From positions 131,558 to 195,557 of the forward strand of contig JADJBC010000041.1 of the NCBI GenBank assembly GCA_016703945.1: DNA of 64,000 nt, in the 5' to 3' direction. The position numbers and the translations under genes were made by a program. Source of the stretch: Candidatus Aalborgicola danicus (GTDB lineage: Bacteria; Pseudomonadota; Gammaproteobacteria; Burkholderiales; Burkholderiaceae_C). Below the pieces are notes generated by a model. That model ran no database searches. It was given only the letters and a program-made list of their open reading frames with translations, and was not told the origin of the DNA. Positions 4,144 to 61,178 of this stretch are shown piece after piece; the first letter of the stretch is position 1, and every line of letters starts with the position of its first letter.

Positions 4144-4803
4144 ATGTTGGACCCTTGCTCCCTGTACCCCGCGTTGGCCCGGGTATCACCTTCTCTGCCA
4201 TCGCTGGGGCTCTCTACTGGTCCCATGACGGTGGCGCCTGGCACCGTGTTGTTTGATGAAAACGCATCCTGCCAGGGTTTTCCGCTGGTGATGGAGGGTG
4301 AGGTCAAGGTGTCGCGTCACTCGGCCGACGGACGCTCGCTGGAGCTGTACCGGGTGGTGCCTGGCGAGCTGTGCCTGGCGTCCAGCGCCAGTTTGTTTCG
4401 CAGCCAACCCCTGATGGCCCAAGGCGTTGCCACCAAATCGACGACGCTGTTGCTGATTCCGCCGGTGGTGTTTGCGCAGTGGTTGGAGACGCCTGCATTT
4501 CGTGACCAGGTGTTGGGTCTGTTTGCCGAACGTATGGCGGACCTGACCGGGCTGATTGACGCCGTGGCTTTCCAGAAACTCGACCAGCGTTTGGCGGCGG
4601 CCCTGTTGGGGCGTGGTCAAGACCTGGCTTTGACCCACCAGGAGTTGGCCGACGAGTTGGGCACGGTGCGCGAAATTGTGTCGCGCCTGCTACGTCGCTT
4701 TGAACGGGAAGGCTGGGTGGAGCTGGCGCGCGAACGTATCCACATCAACAACAGTGCCGCTCTGCGCCTGTTGGCCGGCGACGCCAGCAAGGCCCGGCCT
4801 TGA
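4144..4803 (+). CDS. Crp/Fnr-family transcriptional regulator
   Basis: cNMP-binding fold (GTVLFDENASCQGFPLVMEGEVKV) plus a C-terminal HTH (THQELADELGTVREIVSRLLRRFEREGWV). Only the last 220 aa of tracked ORF 3064..4803 are real. The upstream part is antisense to the 1876..4032 gene. Confidence 0.85.
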   Translation: MLDPCSLYPALARVSPSLPSLGLSTGPMTVAPGTVLFDENASCQGFPLVMEGEVKVSRHSADGRSLELYRVVPGELCLASSASLFRSQPLMAQGVATKSTTLLLIPPVVFAQWLETPAFRDQVLGLFAERMADLTGLIDAVAFQKLDQRLAAALLGRGQDLALTHQELADELGTVREIVSRLLRRFEREGWVELARERIHINNSAALRLLAGDASKARP

Positions 4804-8715: not shown

Positions 8716-8797
8716 TTCACCGCCGGGCCGCCCCAATGTGAACTGCGTCCCCCTCTTGGGGCACCGACCCGCGAAGCGGCGCAGCGAGGGGGCTACG
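8716..8797 (-). repeat. Family C GC-rich hairpin repeat, copy 1 (reverse orientation)
   Basis: Its reverse complement, ccgtagccccctcgctgcgccgcttcgcgggtcggtgccccaagagggggacgcagttcacattggggcggcccggcggtgaa, aligns along its length with 60511-60582 plus 59016-59024. It lies between convergent genes. Confidence 0.75.
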
Positions 8798-58325: not shown

Positions 58326-59018
58326 ATGGCCGACTCAAAAGACGAATGGCTGGGAATTTTGTCAATGAACCCCTGGTTTGGCGCGTTGCCATTGCCTGAG
58401 CGCAAGGCGATGTTGGCAGCGGCGGACGTGGCGCAGGTGCGTGCAGGCGAGATGCTGTACCGCAAAGGCGATACCTCTGGTGGATTTTTTGGTGTGGTGA
58501 AGGGTGCCTTCAAGGTCTCTACGCTGGGGGAGGATGGGCGCGAAGGTATTTTGTCGGTGGTGGAGGCAGGCAACTGGTTTGGCGAGGCTTCGCTGATCGA
58601 CGGTCAACCACGGCCGCACGATGCCACTGCCGTGTTGGCCAGCACCGTGTTGGTGATTCAGCCCCAAGCTTTCAAACGCCTGATGCAGCGCAGCGTCTTT
58701 GCCCGCGCCATCGCCGCGTTGTTATGTAGCCGGGTGCGGGTGCTCTATGGCTTGGTGGAAGACGCCATGCTGCGCTCGACCCGTACCCGCATCGCCCGCC
58801 GTCTGATCACGTTGGCACGCGGGGATGCGACCATGGCGAACGACGCGCGCAGCAGCGTGGCGGTGTCCCAAGAAGCGCTGGCAATGATGCTGGGCATCAC
58901 GCGGCAGACCTTGTCCAAGGAACTGAAGGTGCTGGTGCGCGACGGGGTGCTGAGCCTGGGTTATGGACGGATTGAGATTGTGTCCATGGCCGAGCTGGAG
59001 CTGCGCGCAGAAATATAG
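58326..59018 (+). CDS. Crp/Fnr-family transcriptional regulator
   Basis: cNMP-binding domain (GEMLYRKGDTSGGFFGVVKGAFKV...NWFGEASLIDG) plus HTH (SQEALAMMLGITRQTLSKELKVLVRDG). Confidence 0.85.
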   Translation: MADSKDEWLGILSMNPWFGALPLPERKAMLAAADVAQVRAGEMLYRKGDTSGGFFGVVKGAFKVSTLGEDGREGILSVVEAGNWFGEASLIDGQPRPHDATAVLASTVLVIQPQAFKRLMQRSVFARAIAALLCSRVRVLYGLVEDAMLRSTRTRIARRLITLARGDATMANDARSSVAVSQEALAMMLGITRQTLSKELKVLVRDGVLSLGYGRIEIVSMAELELRAEI

Positions 59019-59024
59019 CCCCCT

Positions 59025-60510
59025 ACTGGGACTTCCCCCGGTGTCAAGCAATCGCTTGCGTTTGGATATCCCTGGAGACGGTATTTTTTGCACTGGCGTG
59101 AACTGGATTTGCGAGTAAATCAGAAACAGACTGCACATCTACTGTCGGTCTTATTGCACCGTTGACCTTGATCCTGGTGCGGACCCAGATACGAACCGCT
59201 CAGCGGGGCTCCAATCACGCTACGTGGACATTGTCAAAACGCCACTGGGGGCTAGTCGAGCTTGCCCGCTGCCGGTCTGACCTGTTTATTGCATCTTTCG
59301 ATTTACGCCTTGCAAGAAACTATCTATTCAGTTACCCAAATTGTCGTCACCGGCTAGCCATTCACTATCGCCGGTCGCACGCTCACATGGCGCGCATCGA
59401 ATGGCTTACCACGTGTAAACACGGCCCAGAGGATGCGCGCATTCTTGTTGGCCAGCGCTACAGCTGCCTTTTGCCAACCCGTCTTTTCGCGCAACTGATG
59501 CGCCCACTTGGAAATGGGATCATCGCGCCGATGCGCCGTAAATACTGCGGCCTTGGCTCCTTGAATGAGAAGGGATCGCAGGTAGGTGTCCCCATGTTTT
59601 GTGATGCCGCCCAGGTTGCTTTTGCCGCCGCTGGAGTTCTGCCGAGGCGTCAGCCCCATCCAGGCGCCAAACTGTGCGCCATTCTTGAACTGTTTGAAGT
59701 CACCTACCGTGGCAATGAGTGCGGAGGCCCCAAGCGGCCCAACGCCTATGAGTTGCTCGGCCTGTCGAACCTGCTCATTGGCTTTGAGATGGGCAGCAAT
59801 GCGTGCATCGCACCAGCTCAGGTGTGCATCAAGCTCCTGCCACTGCTCCCAGGCCCGCTGCAGTGCCAGGCGGGCCAGAGTTGGAAGTTCGTTACTGGCA
59901 TCTTCAATAACGTCGGGCAAGGCGTGGTGCAGGATCTCGGGCTTTTGCGCTAACACAATGCCAAACTCGCCCAAAAGACCCCGAATGCGATTGGTACAGG
60001 CGATGCGCTCCTTCTTGAAGCCTTCGCGCAAGCGGTGAATGCACAGCATGCTTTGTTGTTCTACGCTCTTGATGGGTACGAAATGCATTTGCGGACGTGA
60101 TGCAGCCTCGCAAATGGCCGCCGCATCATTGGCGTCGTTCTTTCCGTGCTTGCCCTGCATCCGGTAGGGTGCAACCAGATGGGCAGCGATGATGCGCGCA
60201 TCCAACCCAAGCGCGACCAGCTTGCGTGCCCAATAATGTGCGCTGGAGCTGGCCTCCATGACCACCATGCAACCAGCAGGCAATTGAGCGCACCAAGCCG
60301 TGAATTTGTCGCGTGGCAGCGCTCGGCCAACAACCCGCTGATCAGCTCTATCCACTCCGTGAACTTGAATGACCCGCTTTGCCAGATCAACGCCGACTCG
60401 TGTAACCTCATGCATGGGACTTCTCCTTCCAAAGGTTTTAGATTGACTTTTCAAAACCAATCTTGGCACTCAATGCCGTTACCAGGAAGTGGGAAGTCCC
60501 TTCGTATTCA
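59025..60510 (-). mobile_element. IS110-family insertion sequence (IS1111-like layout), inserted in a family C repeat
   Basis: The flanks 59016-59024 (tagccccct) and 60511 onward (cgctccaccgctacgcggg...) together reconstitute a family C repeat, by comparison with copy 1. Subterminal inverted repeats are GGGACTTCCC (59028-59037) and GGGAAGTCCC (60491-60500). The 3' non-coding arm is about 330 bp and the 5' arm about 95 bp. Ends are uncertain by about 10 bp. Confidence 0.7.
59354..60415 (-). CDS. IS110-family DEDD transposase/recombinase
   Basis: MHEVTRVGVDLAKRVIQVHGVD (DEDD N-terminal domain) and LIGVGPLGASALIATVGDFKQFKNGAQFGAWMGLTPRQNSSGGKSNLGGITKHGDTYLR (Transposase_20-type C-terminal domain with catalytic Ser region). 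AAGGAG RBS. Confidence 0.9.
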   Translation of the reverse strand: MHEVTRVGVDLAKRVIQVHGVDRADQRVVGRALPRDKFTAWCAQLPAGCMVVMEASSSAHYWARKLVALGLDARIIAAHLVAPYRMQGKHGKNDANDAAAICEAASRPQMHFVPIKSVEQQSMLCIHRLREGFKKERIACTNRIRGLLGEFGIVLAQKPEILHHALPDVIEDASNELPTLARLALQRAWEQWQELDAHLSWCDARIAAHLKANEQVRQAEQLIGVGPLGASALIATVGDFKQFKNGAQFGAWMGLTPRQNSSGGKSNLGGITKHGDTYLRSLLIQGAKAAVFTAHRRDDPISKWAHQLREKTGWQKAAVALANKNARILWAVFTRGKPFDARHVSVRPAIVNG

Positions 60511-60582
60511 CGCTCCACCGCTACGCGGGTCGCTGCCCCCCGAGGGGGCCGTGTTTCGCCTTGGGGCGGCCCGGCGGCGAAT
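60511..60582 (+). repeat. Family C repeat, copy 2 (major part; its first 9 bp lie at 59016-59024 across the IS)
   Basis: cgctccaccgctacgcgggtcgctgccccccgagggggccgtgtttcgccttggggcggcccggcggcgaa. Confidence 0.75.
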
Positions 60583-60596
60583 TGTCTCCGCGATAG

Positions 60597-61178
60597 TTAT
60601 TGCGCTAGCCGCTCGGCCGCCCACAAAACCTGCTTGACCACCTCCAACACGCTGTCGCGCTGAGCCGGCAGCTGGAGTTCGCCGTTGTCGTCAAAGGCGT
60701 CTCCGGCCCGGCCAAGCGCAAACTGCTTGGGCGCGATCCAGCACTGGGATAAGGTCATCAGCGGGTTCAAGTGGCTTAGCGACCGCAGGCCCCCTAAGGC
60801 GCCGGGTGATGCGCTCATCAGGCCGACGACCTTGCCGCGCATGGAGCGGTCACCGTCGGACCAAATGGGGTCGCCTTTGACCGGGCTGCTGATCCAGTCG
60901 ATGGTGTTTTTCAGCAGGCCGGTGTAGGAGCCGTTGTACTCGGGTGAGCAGATGATCCAGGCCGGGTGGTCATAGGCGATGGCCTTGAGGCGCATCACGT
61001 CGGCCGGTGTGCCCCGGGCTTCCAGGTCGGCGTTGTACAGGGGGACGTCGAAGTCGCTCAATTCGATGTGGGTGACTTCCGCGCCCTCGGCCCGTGCCAT
61101 GGCGGCGGCGGCGTTGGCGAGGCGGCGGTTGAAGGAGAGTTGGCGGGTGCTACCCGCGAAGATGAGTAGTTTGGTCAT
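60597..61178 (-). CDS. NADPH-dependent FMN reductase
   Basis: MTKLLIFAGSTRQLSFNRRLA...SPEYNGSYTGLLKNTIDW. The 5' extension of the tracked ORF reads through repeat DNA and was rejected. Confidence 0.88.
   Translation of the reverse strand: MTKLLIFAGSTRQLSFNRRLANAAAAMARAEGAEVTHIELSDFDVPLYNADLEARGTPADVMRLKAIAYDHPAWIICSPEYNGSYTGLLKNTIDWISSPVKGDPIWSDGDRSMRGKVVGLMSASPGALGGLRSLSHLNPLMTLSQCWIAPKQFALGRAGDAFDDNGELQLPAQRDSVLEVVKQVLWAAERLAQ

What the first reader, a model, noticed from the sequence alone, without database searches (positions are those of the whole stretch)
59025..60510. IS110-family element with a ~330-bp 3' non-coding arm: candidate bridge/seek-RNA locus with a readable target
The DEDD transposase (59354-60415, minus strand) has only about 95 bp upstream but about 330 bp of non-coding DNA downstream (59025-59353). 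It also has subterminal inverted repeats GGGACTTCCC/GGGAAGTCCC. That is the IS1111-type layout, in which the guide (bridge/seek) RNA described in 2024 is encoded 3' of the recombinase. The insertion site can be reconstructed. The flanks tagccccct | cgctccaccgctacgcggg rebuild a family C repeat, so the element targets a REP-like sequence as several IS110/IS1111 members do. Within the 3' arm, gggggcta (59247-59254) is the reverse complement of the left target flank tagccccc. Also, tcacgct (59215-59221) is identical to the right junction 60508-60514. One sense and one antisense match is the geometry expected for a target-binding loop. However, 7-8-nt matches can arise by chance.
Basis: partly seen in the sequence, partly recalled or inferred. 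Interest (0 to 1): 0.75.

Follow-up and report, generated by a model that had tools for sequence, protein, structure and literature searches.

The report
IS1111-type insertion sequence with guide RNA
This is an intact jumping gene of the IS110/IS1111 kind that carries, behind its recombinase gene, a structured guide ("bridge" or "seek") RNA whose loops spell out both its own ends and the 13-base repeat sequence it inserts into; the class was described in 2024, so this is a clear new example rather than a new mechanism.

Summary

- **Element:** window 59024-60509 (not 59025-60510), 1486 bp, minus strand. It is an IS110-family element of the IS1111 type:
  - DEDD recombinase at 59354-60415;
  - 10-bp subterminal inverted repeats;
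  - 94 bp of non-coding DNA upstream and 330 bp downstream;
  - no target duplication.
- **Boundaries and target:** an exact empty site of a sister insertion fixes these. In IS orientation the target is AGCGT|GGGGGCTA, which lies in a REP-like repeat.
- **Guide blocks:** in about 40 relatives (63-82% protein identity) the 3' arm is a conserved scaffold with two hypervariable blocks.
  - In each relative they track that element's own right and left flanks (0 of 20,000 permutations reach the observed match).
- **Structure:** the blocks face each other in an internal loop between two helices supported by compensatory changes.
- **Donor recognition:** a second region matches the element's own ends and co-varies with them.
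- **Promoter:** joining the ends would create a TTGACA-16-TAGAAT promoter.

This layout matches the published IS1111 seekRNA/bridge RNA. RNA expression and transposition activity are inferred, not shown. I rate it a new member of a known kind, of modest interest.

The parts
59024..60509 (-). Complete insertion sequence, 1486 bp. In IS orientation it reads GAATACGAAGGGACTTCCC...GGGAAGTCCCAGTA. There is no target-site duplication.
   Evidence: The identical element occurs at three independent sites. The exact empty site in L095/L131 matches the joined flanks of L002 at 300 of 300 nt. The termini GAAT...GTA are conserved across the family.
60416..60509 (-). Left end, 94-bp 5' non-coding region. 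Bases 60506-60509 (GAAT) supply two thirds of the junction -10 box.
   Evidence: The LE sequence GAATACGAAGGGACTTCCC is conserved in 40 relatives.
60491..60500 (-). Left subterminal inverted repeat, GGGACTTCCC in IS orientation.
   Evidence: pair I22, 100% complementary. The repeat is 11-13 bp in relatives.
59354..60415 (-). DEDD (RuvC-like) recombinase/transposase, 353 aa. It contains GLTPRQNSSG, which fits the GL-P----S(t)G motif.
   Evidence: Pfam PF01548 and PF02371. NCBIfam NF033542 at 321.8 bits. C-terminal similarity to the ISCro4 and IS621 structures. The motif was read from the translation and compared with PMC11187229.
59024..59353 (-). Right end, 330-bp 3' non-coding region that encodes the guide RNA.
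59128..59296 (-). Conserved bridge/seekRNA scaffold, about 169 nt. It is closed by an outer helix (59291-59296 with 59128-59134).
   Evidence: Alignment A1 and its consensus fold. 97.9% of cells are paired. 16 pairs show double-sided changes, against 6.7 +/- 1.6 in shuffles and 2-6 in slid controls.
59256..59271 (-). 5' strand of the helix that closes the target-binding loop (CAGCGGGCAAGCUCGA). Its partner is 59201-59211.
   Evidence: Up to 10 sequences per pair carry compensatory changes (alignment columns 43-55 with 106-115).
59247..59254 (-). Right-target guide. The RNA reads UAGCCCCC, antisense to the top strand of the right flank GGGGGCTA. It lies within the 10-nt hypervariable block 59246-59255.
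   Evidence: 8 of 9 positions match the element's own flank. The block co-varies with the right flank across relatives.
59224..59245 (-). Hairpin that caps the target-binding loop (GUGGC...CCAC).
   Evidence: Three of its four pairs show compensatory changes.
59215..59221 (-). Left-target guide. The RNA reads AGCGU (59217-59221), in the same sense as the left flank and therefore pairing with the bottom strand. It is followed by GA (59215-59216), which equals the first two bases of the left end.
   Evidence: All 5 bases match the element's own flank. The block co-varies with the left flank. In L051 the left end begins with A and the RNA base here is also A.
59201..59211 (-). 3' strand of the helix that closes the target-binding loop (GAGCCCCGCUG).
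59189..59195 (-). Candidate donor guide for the left end. The RNA reads UUCGUAU, antisense to left-end bases 3-9 (ATACGAA).
   Evidence: The sequence shows the match directly. L041 and L044 carry GAATGCGA in the left end and UUCGCAU in the RNA, a compensated change. The L025 group carries the left-end change without compensation. This is the weakest of the four guides, and the consensus fold pairs the segment with 59272-59283.
59147..59186 (-). Hairpin arm between the two donor-matching segments.
   Evidence: The helices at alignment columns 132-135/173-176 and 137-140/163-166 show compensatory changes.
59138..59144 (-). Donor guide for the right end and circle junction. The RNA reads CAGUAGA, in the same sense as the right-end terminus CAGTA followed by GA of the left end.
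   Evidence: The right-end base at position -4 and the corresponding RNA base agree in 39 of 39 elements across three states: A/A 4, T/T 32, G/G 3. In L051 the RNA reads GUAAA, matching its left end AAAT.
59042..59047 (-). TTGACA, a -35 box near the right end. After circularisation it sits 16 nt upstream of TAGAAT, formed from 59024-59025 plus 60506-60509.
   Evidence: The sequence shows this directly. TTGAC is conserved at 90% or more across the family. No sigma-70-like promoter was found in the integrated element. Junction promoters are reported for this family (PMC11187229).
59028..59037 (-). Right subterminal inverted repeat, GGGAAGTCCC in IS orientation.
   Evidence: pair I22.
59016..59023 (-). 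Right half of the target (GGGGGCTA in IS orientation), immediately outside the element.
60510..60514 (-). Left half of the target (AGCGT in IS orientation), immediately outside the element. It is the start of a REP-like repeat that runs to about 60585.

Best explanation
Window 59024-60509 is an intact IS110-family insertion sequence of the IS1111 type.

**What it encodes**
- A DEDD recombinase.
- Downstream of that gene, a structured non-coding RNA of about 170 nt (a bridge RNA or seekRNA).

**How the RNA reads its substrates**
- An internal loop (the target-binding loop) carries two guides.
  - UAGCCCCC pairs with the top strand of the right half-target GGGGGCTA.
  - AGCGU, followed by GA, pairs with the bottom strand of the left half-target AGCGT.
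  - Together they specify the 13-bp site AGCGT|GGGGGCTA, which occurs at the foot of a REP-like palindromic repeat.
- A second, multiloop region carries segments that match the element's own ends.
  - CAGUAGA is in the same sense as the joined right-end/left-end junction.
  - UUCGUAU is antisense to the left end.

**Likely transposition cycle**
1. The element excises as a circle.
2. Joining the ends creates a TTGACA-16-TAGAAT promoter that drives the recombinase gene and the RNA behind it.
3. The recombinase-RNA complex brings the circle junction and the target together and recombines them without duplicating target bases.

**Shown here**
- The anatomy of the element.
- Exact insertion and empty-site pairs.
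- Covariation between guides and flanks, and between guides and ends.
- Helices supported by covariation.

**Inferred from published relatives**
- That the arm is transcribed.
- That the RNA binds the recombinase.
- That a circular intermediate forms.
- That the element is currently active.
For: **Protein family**
- Pfam PF01548 and PF02371.
- NCBIfam 'IS110 family RNA-guided transposase' at 321.8 bits.
- Similarity to the IS621 and ISCro4 structures.

**Recent mobility**
- Copies encoding a 100%-identical transposase, with the same 1486-bp length and matching end sequences, sit at three unrelated loci. All are flanked by AGCGT | GGGGGCT(A/T).
- L095 and L131 are the exact empty site of the L002 insertion, 300 of 300 nt, with no target duplication.

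**Target population**
- 68 of 76 uninterrupted copies matching TAGCCCCCNCGCTCCACCGC have N = A. This is the sequence predicted by the guides.

**Guides**
- In the alignment of 40 3' arms, only two short blocks are hypervariable.
- Each block tracks its element's own flank. Right flank: 6.6 of 9 own against 3.65 non-own. Left flank: 4.4 of 6 own against 1.74 non-own. None of 20,000 permutations reaches the observed totals.
- L039 shares this element's right guide and right flank but has a different left guide (AUCCAC) and a matching different left flank (TTCCAC).

**Structure**
- The consensus has 44 pairs with 97.9% of cells paired.
- 16 pairs show double-sided changes, against 6.7 +/- 1.6 in shuffles and 2-6 in slid controls.
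- The guides sit in an internal loop between helices supported by covariation.
- The single-sequence minimum-free-energy fold reproduces the target-loop arm.

**Donor recognition**
- The right-end base at position -4 and the RNA base agree in 39 of 39 elements over three states.
- In L051 the first base of the left end is A instead of G, and both RNA sites carry the same change.

**Promoter**
- No promoter was found inside the integrated copy.
- The -35 box in the right end is conserved across the family.

**Literature**
- The 3' NCR location, and the top-strand match lying 5' of the bottom-strand match, are the published IS1111 seekRNA layout (PMC11187229).
- Bridge RNAs are predicted in the right end of 93% of IS1111 elements, with donor-binding nucleotides often in a multiloop (PMC11208160).
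Against: - There is no expression data, so the RNA and its ends are unverified.
- Rfam 15 gave no hit, so no curated model confirms the RNA.
- Folding energies of the single sequence are not unusual: z = -1.46 for the whole arm and -1.07 for the core.
- The left-end donor guide is only partly supported.
  - The L025 group changed the left end without compensation.
  - Five relatives have UUGGUAU opposite an unchanged left end.
  - The consensus fold pairs this segment with an invariant upstream segment, so it may not be free.
- In this element the RNA reads GAUU after the left guide, where the left end reads GAAT. Relatives have GAAU.
- A few relatives sit in sites that do not fit their own guides (L053; L022/L028 are near-cognate). 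One contig carrying this element's transposase has a non-cognate left flank (L010).
- No dinucleotide core shared by donor and target, as in IS621, is evident. The donor has GA and this target has GG.
Confidence: 0.9

Rival explanations
1. The element is as described, but the guide acts as single-stranded DNA rather than as RNA. The transposon's own DNA would pair with the target, as IS200/IS605 elements do with their subterminal DNA guides.
For: Sequence covariation between guide blocks and flanks cannot by itself distinguish an RNA guide from a DNA guide of the same strand.
Against: - The guides lie about 230-270 bp inside the right end, not at a subterminal hairpin.
- The scaffold has conserved G-U pairs (for example alignment columns 32/128 and 36/123, GU in 30 of 30). 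These are stable in RNA, and they tie the structure to the recombinase-sense strand.
- The recombinase is a DEDD enzyme, not a HUH enzyme.
- For four IS1111 relatives, an RNA derived from the non-coding region co-purified with the transposase. For ISEc11 the non-coding region also worked when supplied in trans from a T7 promoter (PMC11187229).
Confidence: 0.03
2. The two matches are coincidental. The 3' arm would then be an ordinary untranslated region (terminator or spacer), with target choice made by the protein alone.
For: Matches of 7-8 nt are individually weak. Single-sequence folding z-scores are unremarkable. Rfam gave no hit.
Against: - The two matches coincide with the only two hypervariable blocks of a strongly conserved scaffold.
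- In relatives those blocks match each element's own flanks, with 0 of 20,000 permutations reaching the observed totals.
- The helices are supported by compensatory changes.
- The donor ends co-vary with a second RNA region.
Confidence: 0.02
3. The element is a correctly built IS1111-type element, but this copy is now inert. It would be a fixed relic whose RNA is no longer used.
For: - The same insertion (FMN reductase | Crp-like regulator) recurs in several metagenome contigs (L004-L007, L009), so it may be fixed in a lineage.
- The RNA reads GAUU where the left end reads GAAT.
- The only other repeat copy in the window is unoccupied, but it is not a clean test. It has one mismatch to the 13-bp target, at the T adjacent to the crossover.
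Against: - The ORF is intact.
- The ends, the guides and the junction promoter are all intact.
- Copies encoding a 100%-identical transposase occupy three different loci, and an empty allele of one of them still circulates. This indicates recent movement.
Confidence: 0.1

Closest known systems
IS1111-group elements with a 3' seekRNA (ISEc11, ISPa11, ISKpn4, ISPst6; Siddiquee et al. 2024, PMC11187229)
   Same: - DEDD transposase with the GL-P----S(t)G motif.
- Subterminal inverted repeats.
- Long non-coding region downstream of tnp.
- No target duplication.
- Two short guide segments in that region, with the top-strand match 5' of the bottom-strand match.
- Guide-bearing arm of about 96 nt inside a scaffold of about 170 nt. 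Published short forms are 82-96 nt and long forms 148-172 nt.
- Promoter formed at the circle junction.
- ISPa11 also targets a REP sequence.
   Different: - The target sequence differs (AGCGT|GGGGGCTA), as does the host group (Comamonadaceae-type Burkholderiales, going by where relatives are found).
- The terminal extensions beyond the inverted repeat are 9 nt (left) and 4 nt (right), not the 7-bp left extension described for ISEc11.
- Nothing has been tested experimentally here.
IS621 bridge RNA (IS110 group; Durrant et al. 2024, PMC11208160; structures 8WT6 and related entries)
   Same: - One RNA is bispecific for the target and for the donor.
- Each substrate is read on both strands: the left half through the bottom strand and the right half through the top strand.
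- The target guides lie in an internal loop between two helices.
- The guide segments co-vary with the target and the donor across orthologues.
   Different: - The RNA is encoded 3' of the recombinase, not 5' of it.
- The order of the guides along the RNA is reversed.
- The donor-matching segments lie around a multiloop rather than in a simple internal loop.
- The subterminal inverted repeats are long (10-13 bp).
- No CT-like core dinucleotide shared by donor and target is evident.
- Protein similarity is confined to the C-terminal domain (E = 1.5e-7).
ISPpu9 / ISPpu10 of Pseudomonas putida KT2440 (REP-targeting IS110-family elements; PMC12288879)
   Same: Both insert into REP sequences. ISPpu10 forms a hybrid promoter at the circle junction. 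A small RNA gene lies downstream of tnp in ISPpu9.
   Different: [quoted passage not shown] Here the downstream RNA carries the target-matching and end-matching segments. The window contains no orphan copies of it.

Membership tests
IS110 family, IS1111 group | DEDD (RuvC-like) transposase with N-terminal PF01548 and C-terminal PF02371 domains | tested here: met
   (E = 3e-13 and 2e-23). (NF033542, 321.8 bits against a cutoff of 140).
IS110 family, IS1111 group | Subterminal inverted repeats of 7-17 bp | tested here: met
   10 of 10 bp, 59028-59037 with 60491-60500. Relatives have 11-13 bp.
IS110 family, IS1111 group | The longer non-coding region lies downstream of tnp | tested here: met
   330 bp on the 3' side against 94 bp on the 5' side.
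IS110 family, IS1111 group | Site-specific insertion without target-site duplication | tested here: met
   The empty site in L095/L131 equals the joined flanks of L002 at 300 of 300 nt. Three independent sites share AGCGT|GGGGGCT.
IS110 family, IS1111 group | C-terminal GL-P----S(t)G motif | tested here: met
   GLTPRQNSSG was read in the translation. The motif definition is from PMC11187229.
seekRNA / bridge RNA (IS1111 layout) | Two guide segments in the 3' non-coding region, one complementary to each target strand, with the top-strand match 5' of the bottom-strand match | tested here: met
   59247-59254 is antisense to the right flank. 59215-59221 is in the same sense as the left junction. 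The order along the RNA is as published.
seekRNA / bridge RNA (IS1111 layout) | Guide segments co-vary with the target across related elements (natural reprogramming) | tested here: met
   0 of 20,000 permutations reach the observed totals for either flank.
seekRNA / bridge RNA (IS1111 layout) | Conserved secondary structure that presents the guides in a loop | tested here: met
   16 pairs have compensatory changes, against 6.7 in shuffles.
seekRNA / bridge RNA (IS1111 layout) | Donor-binding segments complementary to both element ends | tested here: met
   The right-end/junction guide agrees in 39 of 39 elements across three base states, and L051 adds a further matched change. The left-end guide is weaker: one change is compensated and one is not.
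seekRNA / bridge RNA (IS1111 layout) | The RNA is transcribed, binds the transposase and is required for transposition | not testable with these tools
   No expression or biochemical data are available. This is inferred from ISEc11, ISPa11 and ISKpn4 (PMC11187229).
seekRNA / bridge RNA (IS1111 layout) | Match to a curated RNA family model | tested here: not met
   Rfam 15 returned no relevant hit at E <= 10 in 58500-61000. The published IS110/IS1111 covariance models are not available here. This is therefore a limit of the library, not evidence against membership.
IS621-type bridge recombination | An identical core dinucleotide in donor and target at the crossover | tested here: not met
   The donor junction is GTA|GA and this target is CGT|GG. 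Across relatives the two target bases 3' of the crossover are AA 16, GA 8, GG 5, GT 2 and GC 1 (counted). They are purine-A biased but not fixed.

The most novel reading that the evidence does not exclude
This subfamily may recombine without the strictly shared donor/target core dinucleotide that IS621 requires, and its guide RNAs may act in trans between co-resident relatives.

**On the core**
- Both 'left' guides are followed by GA, the first two bases of the left end.
- The corresponding target bases are only purine-A biased, and are GG here.

**On trans action**
- The donor ends are nearly invariant across the family.
- Some members sit in sites that match another member's guides rather than their own. 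L053 lies in an L058-type target, and L022/L028 lie in a near-cognate site.

If both points are true, target choice in a genome carrying several family members would be set by the pool of RNAs rather than by each element. The strand-exchange geometry of IS1111 elements would also differ from the solved IS621 mechanism.
Probability: 0.2. Interest if true: 0.55.

Novelty: new member of a known kind. Interest (0 to 1): 0.3.

Why it matters
**Annotation.** The 330-bp arm should be labelled as a guide-RNA gene and the element as an RNA-guided IS1111-type insertion sequence. Its exact ends are 59024-60509 and its target is a 13-bp site in a REP-like repeat.

**Possible use.** The family gathered here provides about 40 natural variants. 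They share a nearly invariant scaffold and nearly invariant donor ends, but carry many different target guides. This is a ready comparative set for two purposes:
- defining which positions of an IS1111-type bridge RNA can be reprogrammed;
- choosing orthologues for genome-engineering tests.

**Limits.** It does not change current understanding of the mechanism.

Tried and rejected
- **Rfam 15 scan of 58500-61000** at E <= 10 gave only a chance snoRNA-like hit at 14.8 bits. No curated model was available for comparison.
- **Megablast of the element against PLSDB plasmids** found no match. A protein-level search found only relatives at 67% identity or less, all annotated generically as 'IS110 family transposase'.
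- **Exact-protein look-up of the neighbouring Crp-like regulator**, intended to find an empty allele of this locus, found nothing on record. The empty site came instead from a pattern scan of metagenomes.
- **Single-sequence folding** gave z-scores of -1.46 and -1.07, which are not informative alone. The comparative structure was needed.
  - It looked supported by the paralogous repeat at 8720-8795, which aligns ungapped at 84% over 76 nt.
  - The exact empty site, the population of uninterrupted repeats and the family-conserved termini all contradict it.
- **A duplicated or shared core dinucleotide at the two junctions** (GT, TA, GA or a single T) was looked for. None is consistent across relatives.
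- **Other copies of the element or its RNA in the window** were sought by blastn and tblastn. None was found.
- **A covariance-model search for diverged orphan RNAs** was not run.
- **A first automatic search for inverted repeats** picked spurious pairs in several loci. It was replaced by anchoring on the conserved end motifs.
Full report
**1. What is in the sequence**

- The minus strand of 59354-60415 encodes a 353-aa protein.
  - It hits Pfam DEDD_Tnp_IS110 and Transposase_20.
  - It scores 321.8 bits against NCBIfam NF033542, now named 'IS110 family RNA-guided transposase'.
  - Its C-terminal half aligns with the solved ISCro4 and IS621 recombinases.
  - It contains GLTPRQNSSG, which fits the GL-P----S(t)G motif of IS1111-type transposases (translation; motif from PMC11187229).
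- A perfect 10-bp inverted repeat, GGGACTTCCC/GGGAAGTCCC, lies just inside both ends.
- The non-coding DNA is asymmetric: 94 bp before the gene and 330 bp after it.
- The window holds a single copy.

**2. Exact ends and target**

- An exact-protein look-up returned copies encoding a 100%-identical transposase, with the same 1486-bp length and matching end sequences, on metagenome contigs in three unrelated gene neighbourhoods.
- In the orientation of the recombinase gene, all three are flanked by ...AGCGT on the left and GGGGGCT(A/T)... on the right.
- About 40 relatives with 63-82% protein identity were recovered from genome assemblies of Rhodoferax, Polaromonas, Variovorax, Malikia and other Burkholderiales. 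They share the termini GAATACGAAGGGACTTCCC...GGGAAGTCCCTGTA. The terminus in this element is CCCAGTA.
- A metagenome scan for the uninterrupted repeat TAGCCCCCNCGCTCCACCGC found 76 copies, and N is A in 68 of them.
- Two of those contigs (L095, L131) are the exact empty allele of one sister insertion. They match its joined flanks at 300 of 300 nt.
- The element is therefore 59024-60509: 1486 bp, GAAT...AGTA, with no target duplication. The target is AGCGT|GGGGGCTA.

**3. The 3' arm encodes a guide RNA**

An alignment of the 3' arms shows a strongly conserved scaffold interrupted by two short hypervariable blocks.

- *First block.* In this element it reads CUAGCCCCCA (59246-59255). Its core, 59247-59254, is the reverse complement of the right flank GGGGGCTA.
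- *Second block.* It reads UAGCGU (59217-59222) and is followed by GA. AGCGU-GA has the same sequence as the left junction AGCGT|GA.

In relatives the same two blocks spell each element's own flanks.

| Element | First block (reverse complement) | Right flank | Second block | Left flank |
|---|---|---|---|---|
| L011 | AAAGGAGGA | AAAGGAGGA | GGCAU | GGCAT |
| L016 | GATTTTTT | GATTTTTT | AGAAU | AGAAT |
| L039 | same as this element | same as this element | AUCCAC | TTCCAC |

- Over 32 elements, the mean match to an element's own right flank is 6.6 of 9, against 3.65 for other elements' flanks.
- For the left flank the figures are 4.4 of 6 against 1.74.
- None of 20,000 random re-pairings reaches the observed totals for either flank.

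**4. Structure**

- The consensus fold of 30 sequences has 44 pairs, and 97.9% of cells form standard pairs.
- Sixteen pairs show changes on both sides that keep the pair. Column shuffles give 6.7 +/- 1.6, and partners slid by 1-3 columns give 2-6.
- The two guide blocks face each other across an internal loop.
  - One side is closed by a helix (59256-59271 with 59201-59211) in which up to 10 sequences per pair carry compensatory changes.
  - The other side is closed by a hairpin (59224-59245), three of whose four pairs co-vary.
- The minimum-free-energy fold of this sequence alone reproduces that arm. The folding energy itself is unremarkable, with z about -1.

**5. Donor recognition**

Downstream of the target loop, two conserved segments flank another covariation-supported hairpin (59147-59186).

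- *CAGUAGA (59138-59144).* It has the sequence of the right-end terminus CAGTA followed by GA, the first bases of the left end. This is the junction that would form in a circular intermediate.
  - The right-end base four from the terminus is A in this element and in L039, G in the L025 group, and T elsewhere.
  - The RNA base agrees in 39 of 39 elements.
  - L051 is the only relative whose left end starts with A instead of G. It has A at the corresponding position both here and after its left-target guide.
- *UUCGUAU (59189-59195).* It is antisense to left-end bases 3-9.
  - One lineage (L041, L044) changed both partners.
  - Another (the L025 group) changed only the DNA.
  - Five relatives carry a mismatching G.
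  - This guide is the least secure, and the consensus fold pairs the segment with an invariant upstream stretch.
- This arrangement matches the published remark that IS1111 donor-binding nucleotides often lie in a multiloop (PMC11208160).

**6. Promoter**

- No sigma-70-like promoter was found within the integrated element.
- A family-conserved TTGACA lies at 59042-59047.
- Joining the right end to the left end would place it 16 nt upstream of TAGAAT (TA from 59024-59025 plus GAAT from 60506-60509).
- Junction promoters of this kind are documented for the family (PMC11187229, PMC12288879). Here the promoter is a prediction from sequence.

**7. Mechanism, and which steps are inferred**

- *Shown here:* element anatomy, precise insertion without duplication, recent mobility, guide-target and guide-donor covariation, and conserved RNA-type structure on the recombinase-sense strand, including invariant G-U pairs.
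- *Inferred from experiments on ISEc11, ISPa11, ISKpn4 and IS621:* transcription of the arm, binding of the RNA to the recombinase, excision as a circle, and RNA-directed recombination of the circle junction with the target.
- A guide acting as DNA rather than RNA cannot be excluded by sequence alone. The enzyme class, the internal position of the guides and the published biochemistry all make it unlikely.

**8. Comparison with known systems**

- The element meets every sequence-level criterion of the IS1111 group and of its seekRNA/bridge RNA. This includes the published order of the two guides, with the top-strand match 5' of the bottom-strand match (PMC11187229).
- It differs from IS621 in four ways: the location of the RNA, the order of the guides, the length of the subterminal repeats, and the absence of an evident core dinucleotide shared by donor and target.
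- On the last point, the donor has GA 3' of the crossover and this target has GG. Across relatives these two target bases are AA 16, GA 8, GG 5, GT 2 and GC 1.
- Like ISPa11 and ISPpu9/10, it targets a REP-type repeat.

**9. Verdict**

- The kind of system has been known since 2024 and is now built into standard annotation models.
- This is a new, well-resolved member with a readable 13-bp target, and is of modest interest.
- The side observations listed separately (elements sitting in another member's target, a partial internal junction in L003, and a duplicated guide in L074) are the only hints of anything beyond the textbook picture.

Noticed in passing
L053 (Malikia sp. MAG), element at about 1410-2890; compare L058: This relative's two guide blocks (reverse complement of the first block TTTGGGTCTA; left guide CCGACU) do not match its own flanks (...TTAGCGTAC | GATTTTTTCCGAATTC). 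Those flanks are the target type matched by the guides of a different family member, L058. Either another element's RNA directed the insertion in trans, or the guide region was replaced after insertion.
   Followed up: partly
L022 and L028 (same MAG as L030 and L047): Copies whose guides fit CCAAAT|AAGGCGGAG (the L030/L047 sites) also sit in GGCAT|AAAGGAGGA repeats. This is a near-cognate site with about three mismatches. It suggests tolerated off-target insertion into a related REP subfamily.
   Followed up: partly
L003, about 4391-4415 (same locus as L001, different sample): Directly after the right-end terminus CCCAGTA come 24 nt identical to the element's own internal sequence that follows the left-target guide (GATTGGAGCCCCGCTGAGCGGTTC). 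These replace 33 nt of the flank seen in L001. The DNA encoding the left guide mimics a left junction (AGCGT|GA), so this could be a footprint of recombination at a pseudo-end. L003 is only 93.7% identical to L001 and has 150 gaps, so an assembly artefact is equally possible.
   Followed up: partly
L010, about 540-600: A contig encoding the 100%-identical transposase has a different, AT-rich left flank (...GCGCACGTTTCAC|GAATACGA) that does not match the left guide AGCGU. The contig ends 97 nt after the stop codon, so the right flank and the guide region cannot be seen. It may be an off-target insertion, a variant with other guides, or a chimeric contig.
   Followed up: partly
L074, about 2720-2770 (Rhodoferax MAG): The segment holding the left-target guide plus the 3' strand of the closing helix is tandemly duplicated (...CGAGCGAATGGGGCCTCACCGAGCGAATGGGGCCTCACCGAGCGG).
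   Followed up: no
L023, about 1470-1530: The 3' arm carries an extra insertion of about 60 nt just after the conserved GAGCGG. The right end reads CCCTCTA instead of CCCTGTA, without a matching change in the RNA. This copy may be decaying.
   Followed up: no
window 8720-8795 (minus strand) and 60510-60585: These are two copies of a REP-like repeat (TAGCCCCC.CGCT.C.CCGCT.CGCGGGTCG.TGCCCC..GAGGGGG...TTGGGGCGGCCCGGCGG). The repeat is abundant in public metagenomes: 75 stretches match a 19-base core exactly. It contains the inverted pair TAGCCCCC...GGGGGCTA, so the right half-target also recurs on the other arm of the palindrome. The copy at 8720-8795 has T where the element's target needs A, and it is unoccupied.
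   Followed up: partly
window 59017-59033 (minus strand): The right-end terminus and the adjoining target (AGTCCCAGTAGGGGGCT followed by ATATTTCT) score as a terminator-like hairpin with a T-rich tail. It sits at the 3' end of the arm and faces the stop codon of the convergent Crp-like regulator gene (58326-59018). Whether it ends the guide-RNA precursor is unknown.
   Followed up: no
A1 alignment columns 30-40 with 119-131 (window 59272-59283 with about 59186-59198): The candidate left-end donor guide UUCGUAUCU is predicted to pair with the invariant AGGUCAGACCG upstream. All of these pairs are invariant, so covariation neither supports nor refutes them. The pairing may be an autoinhibited or alternative conformation, or simply over-prediction.
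   Followed up: no
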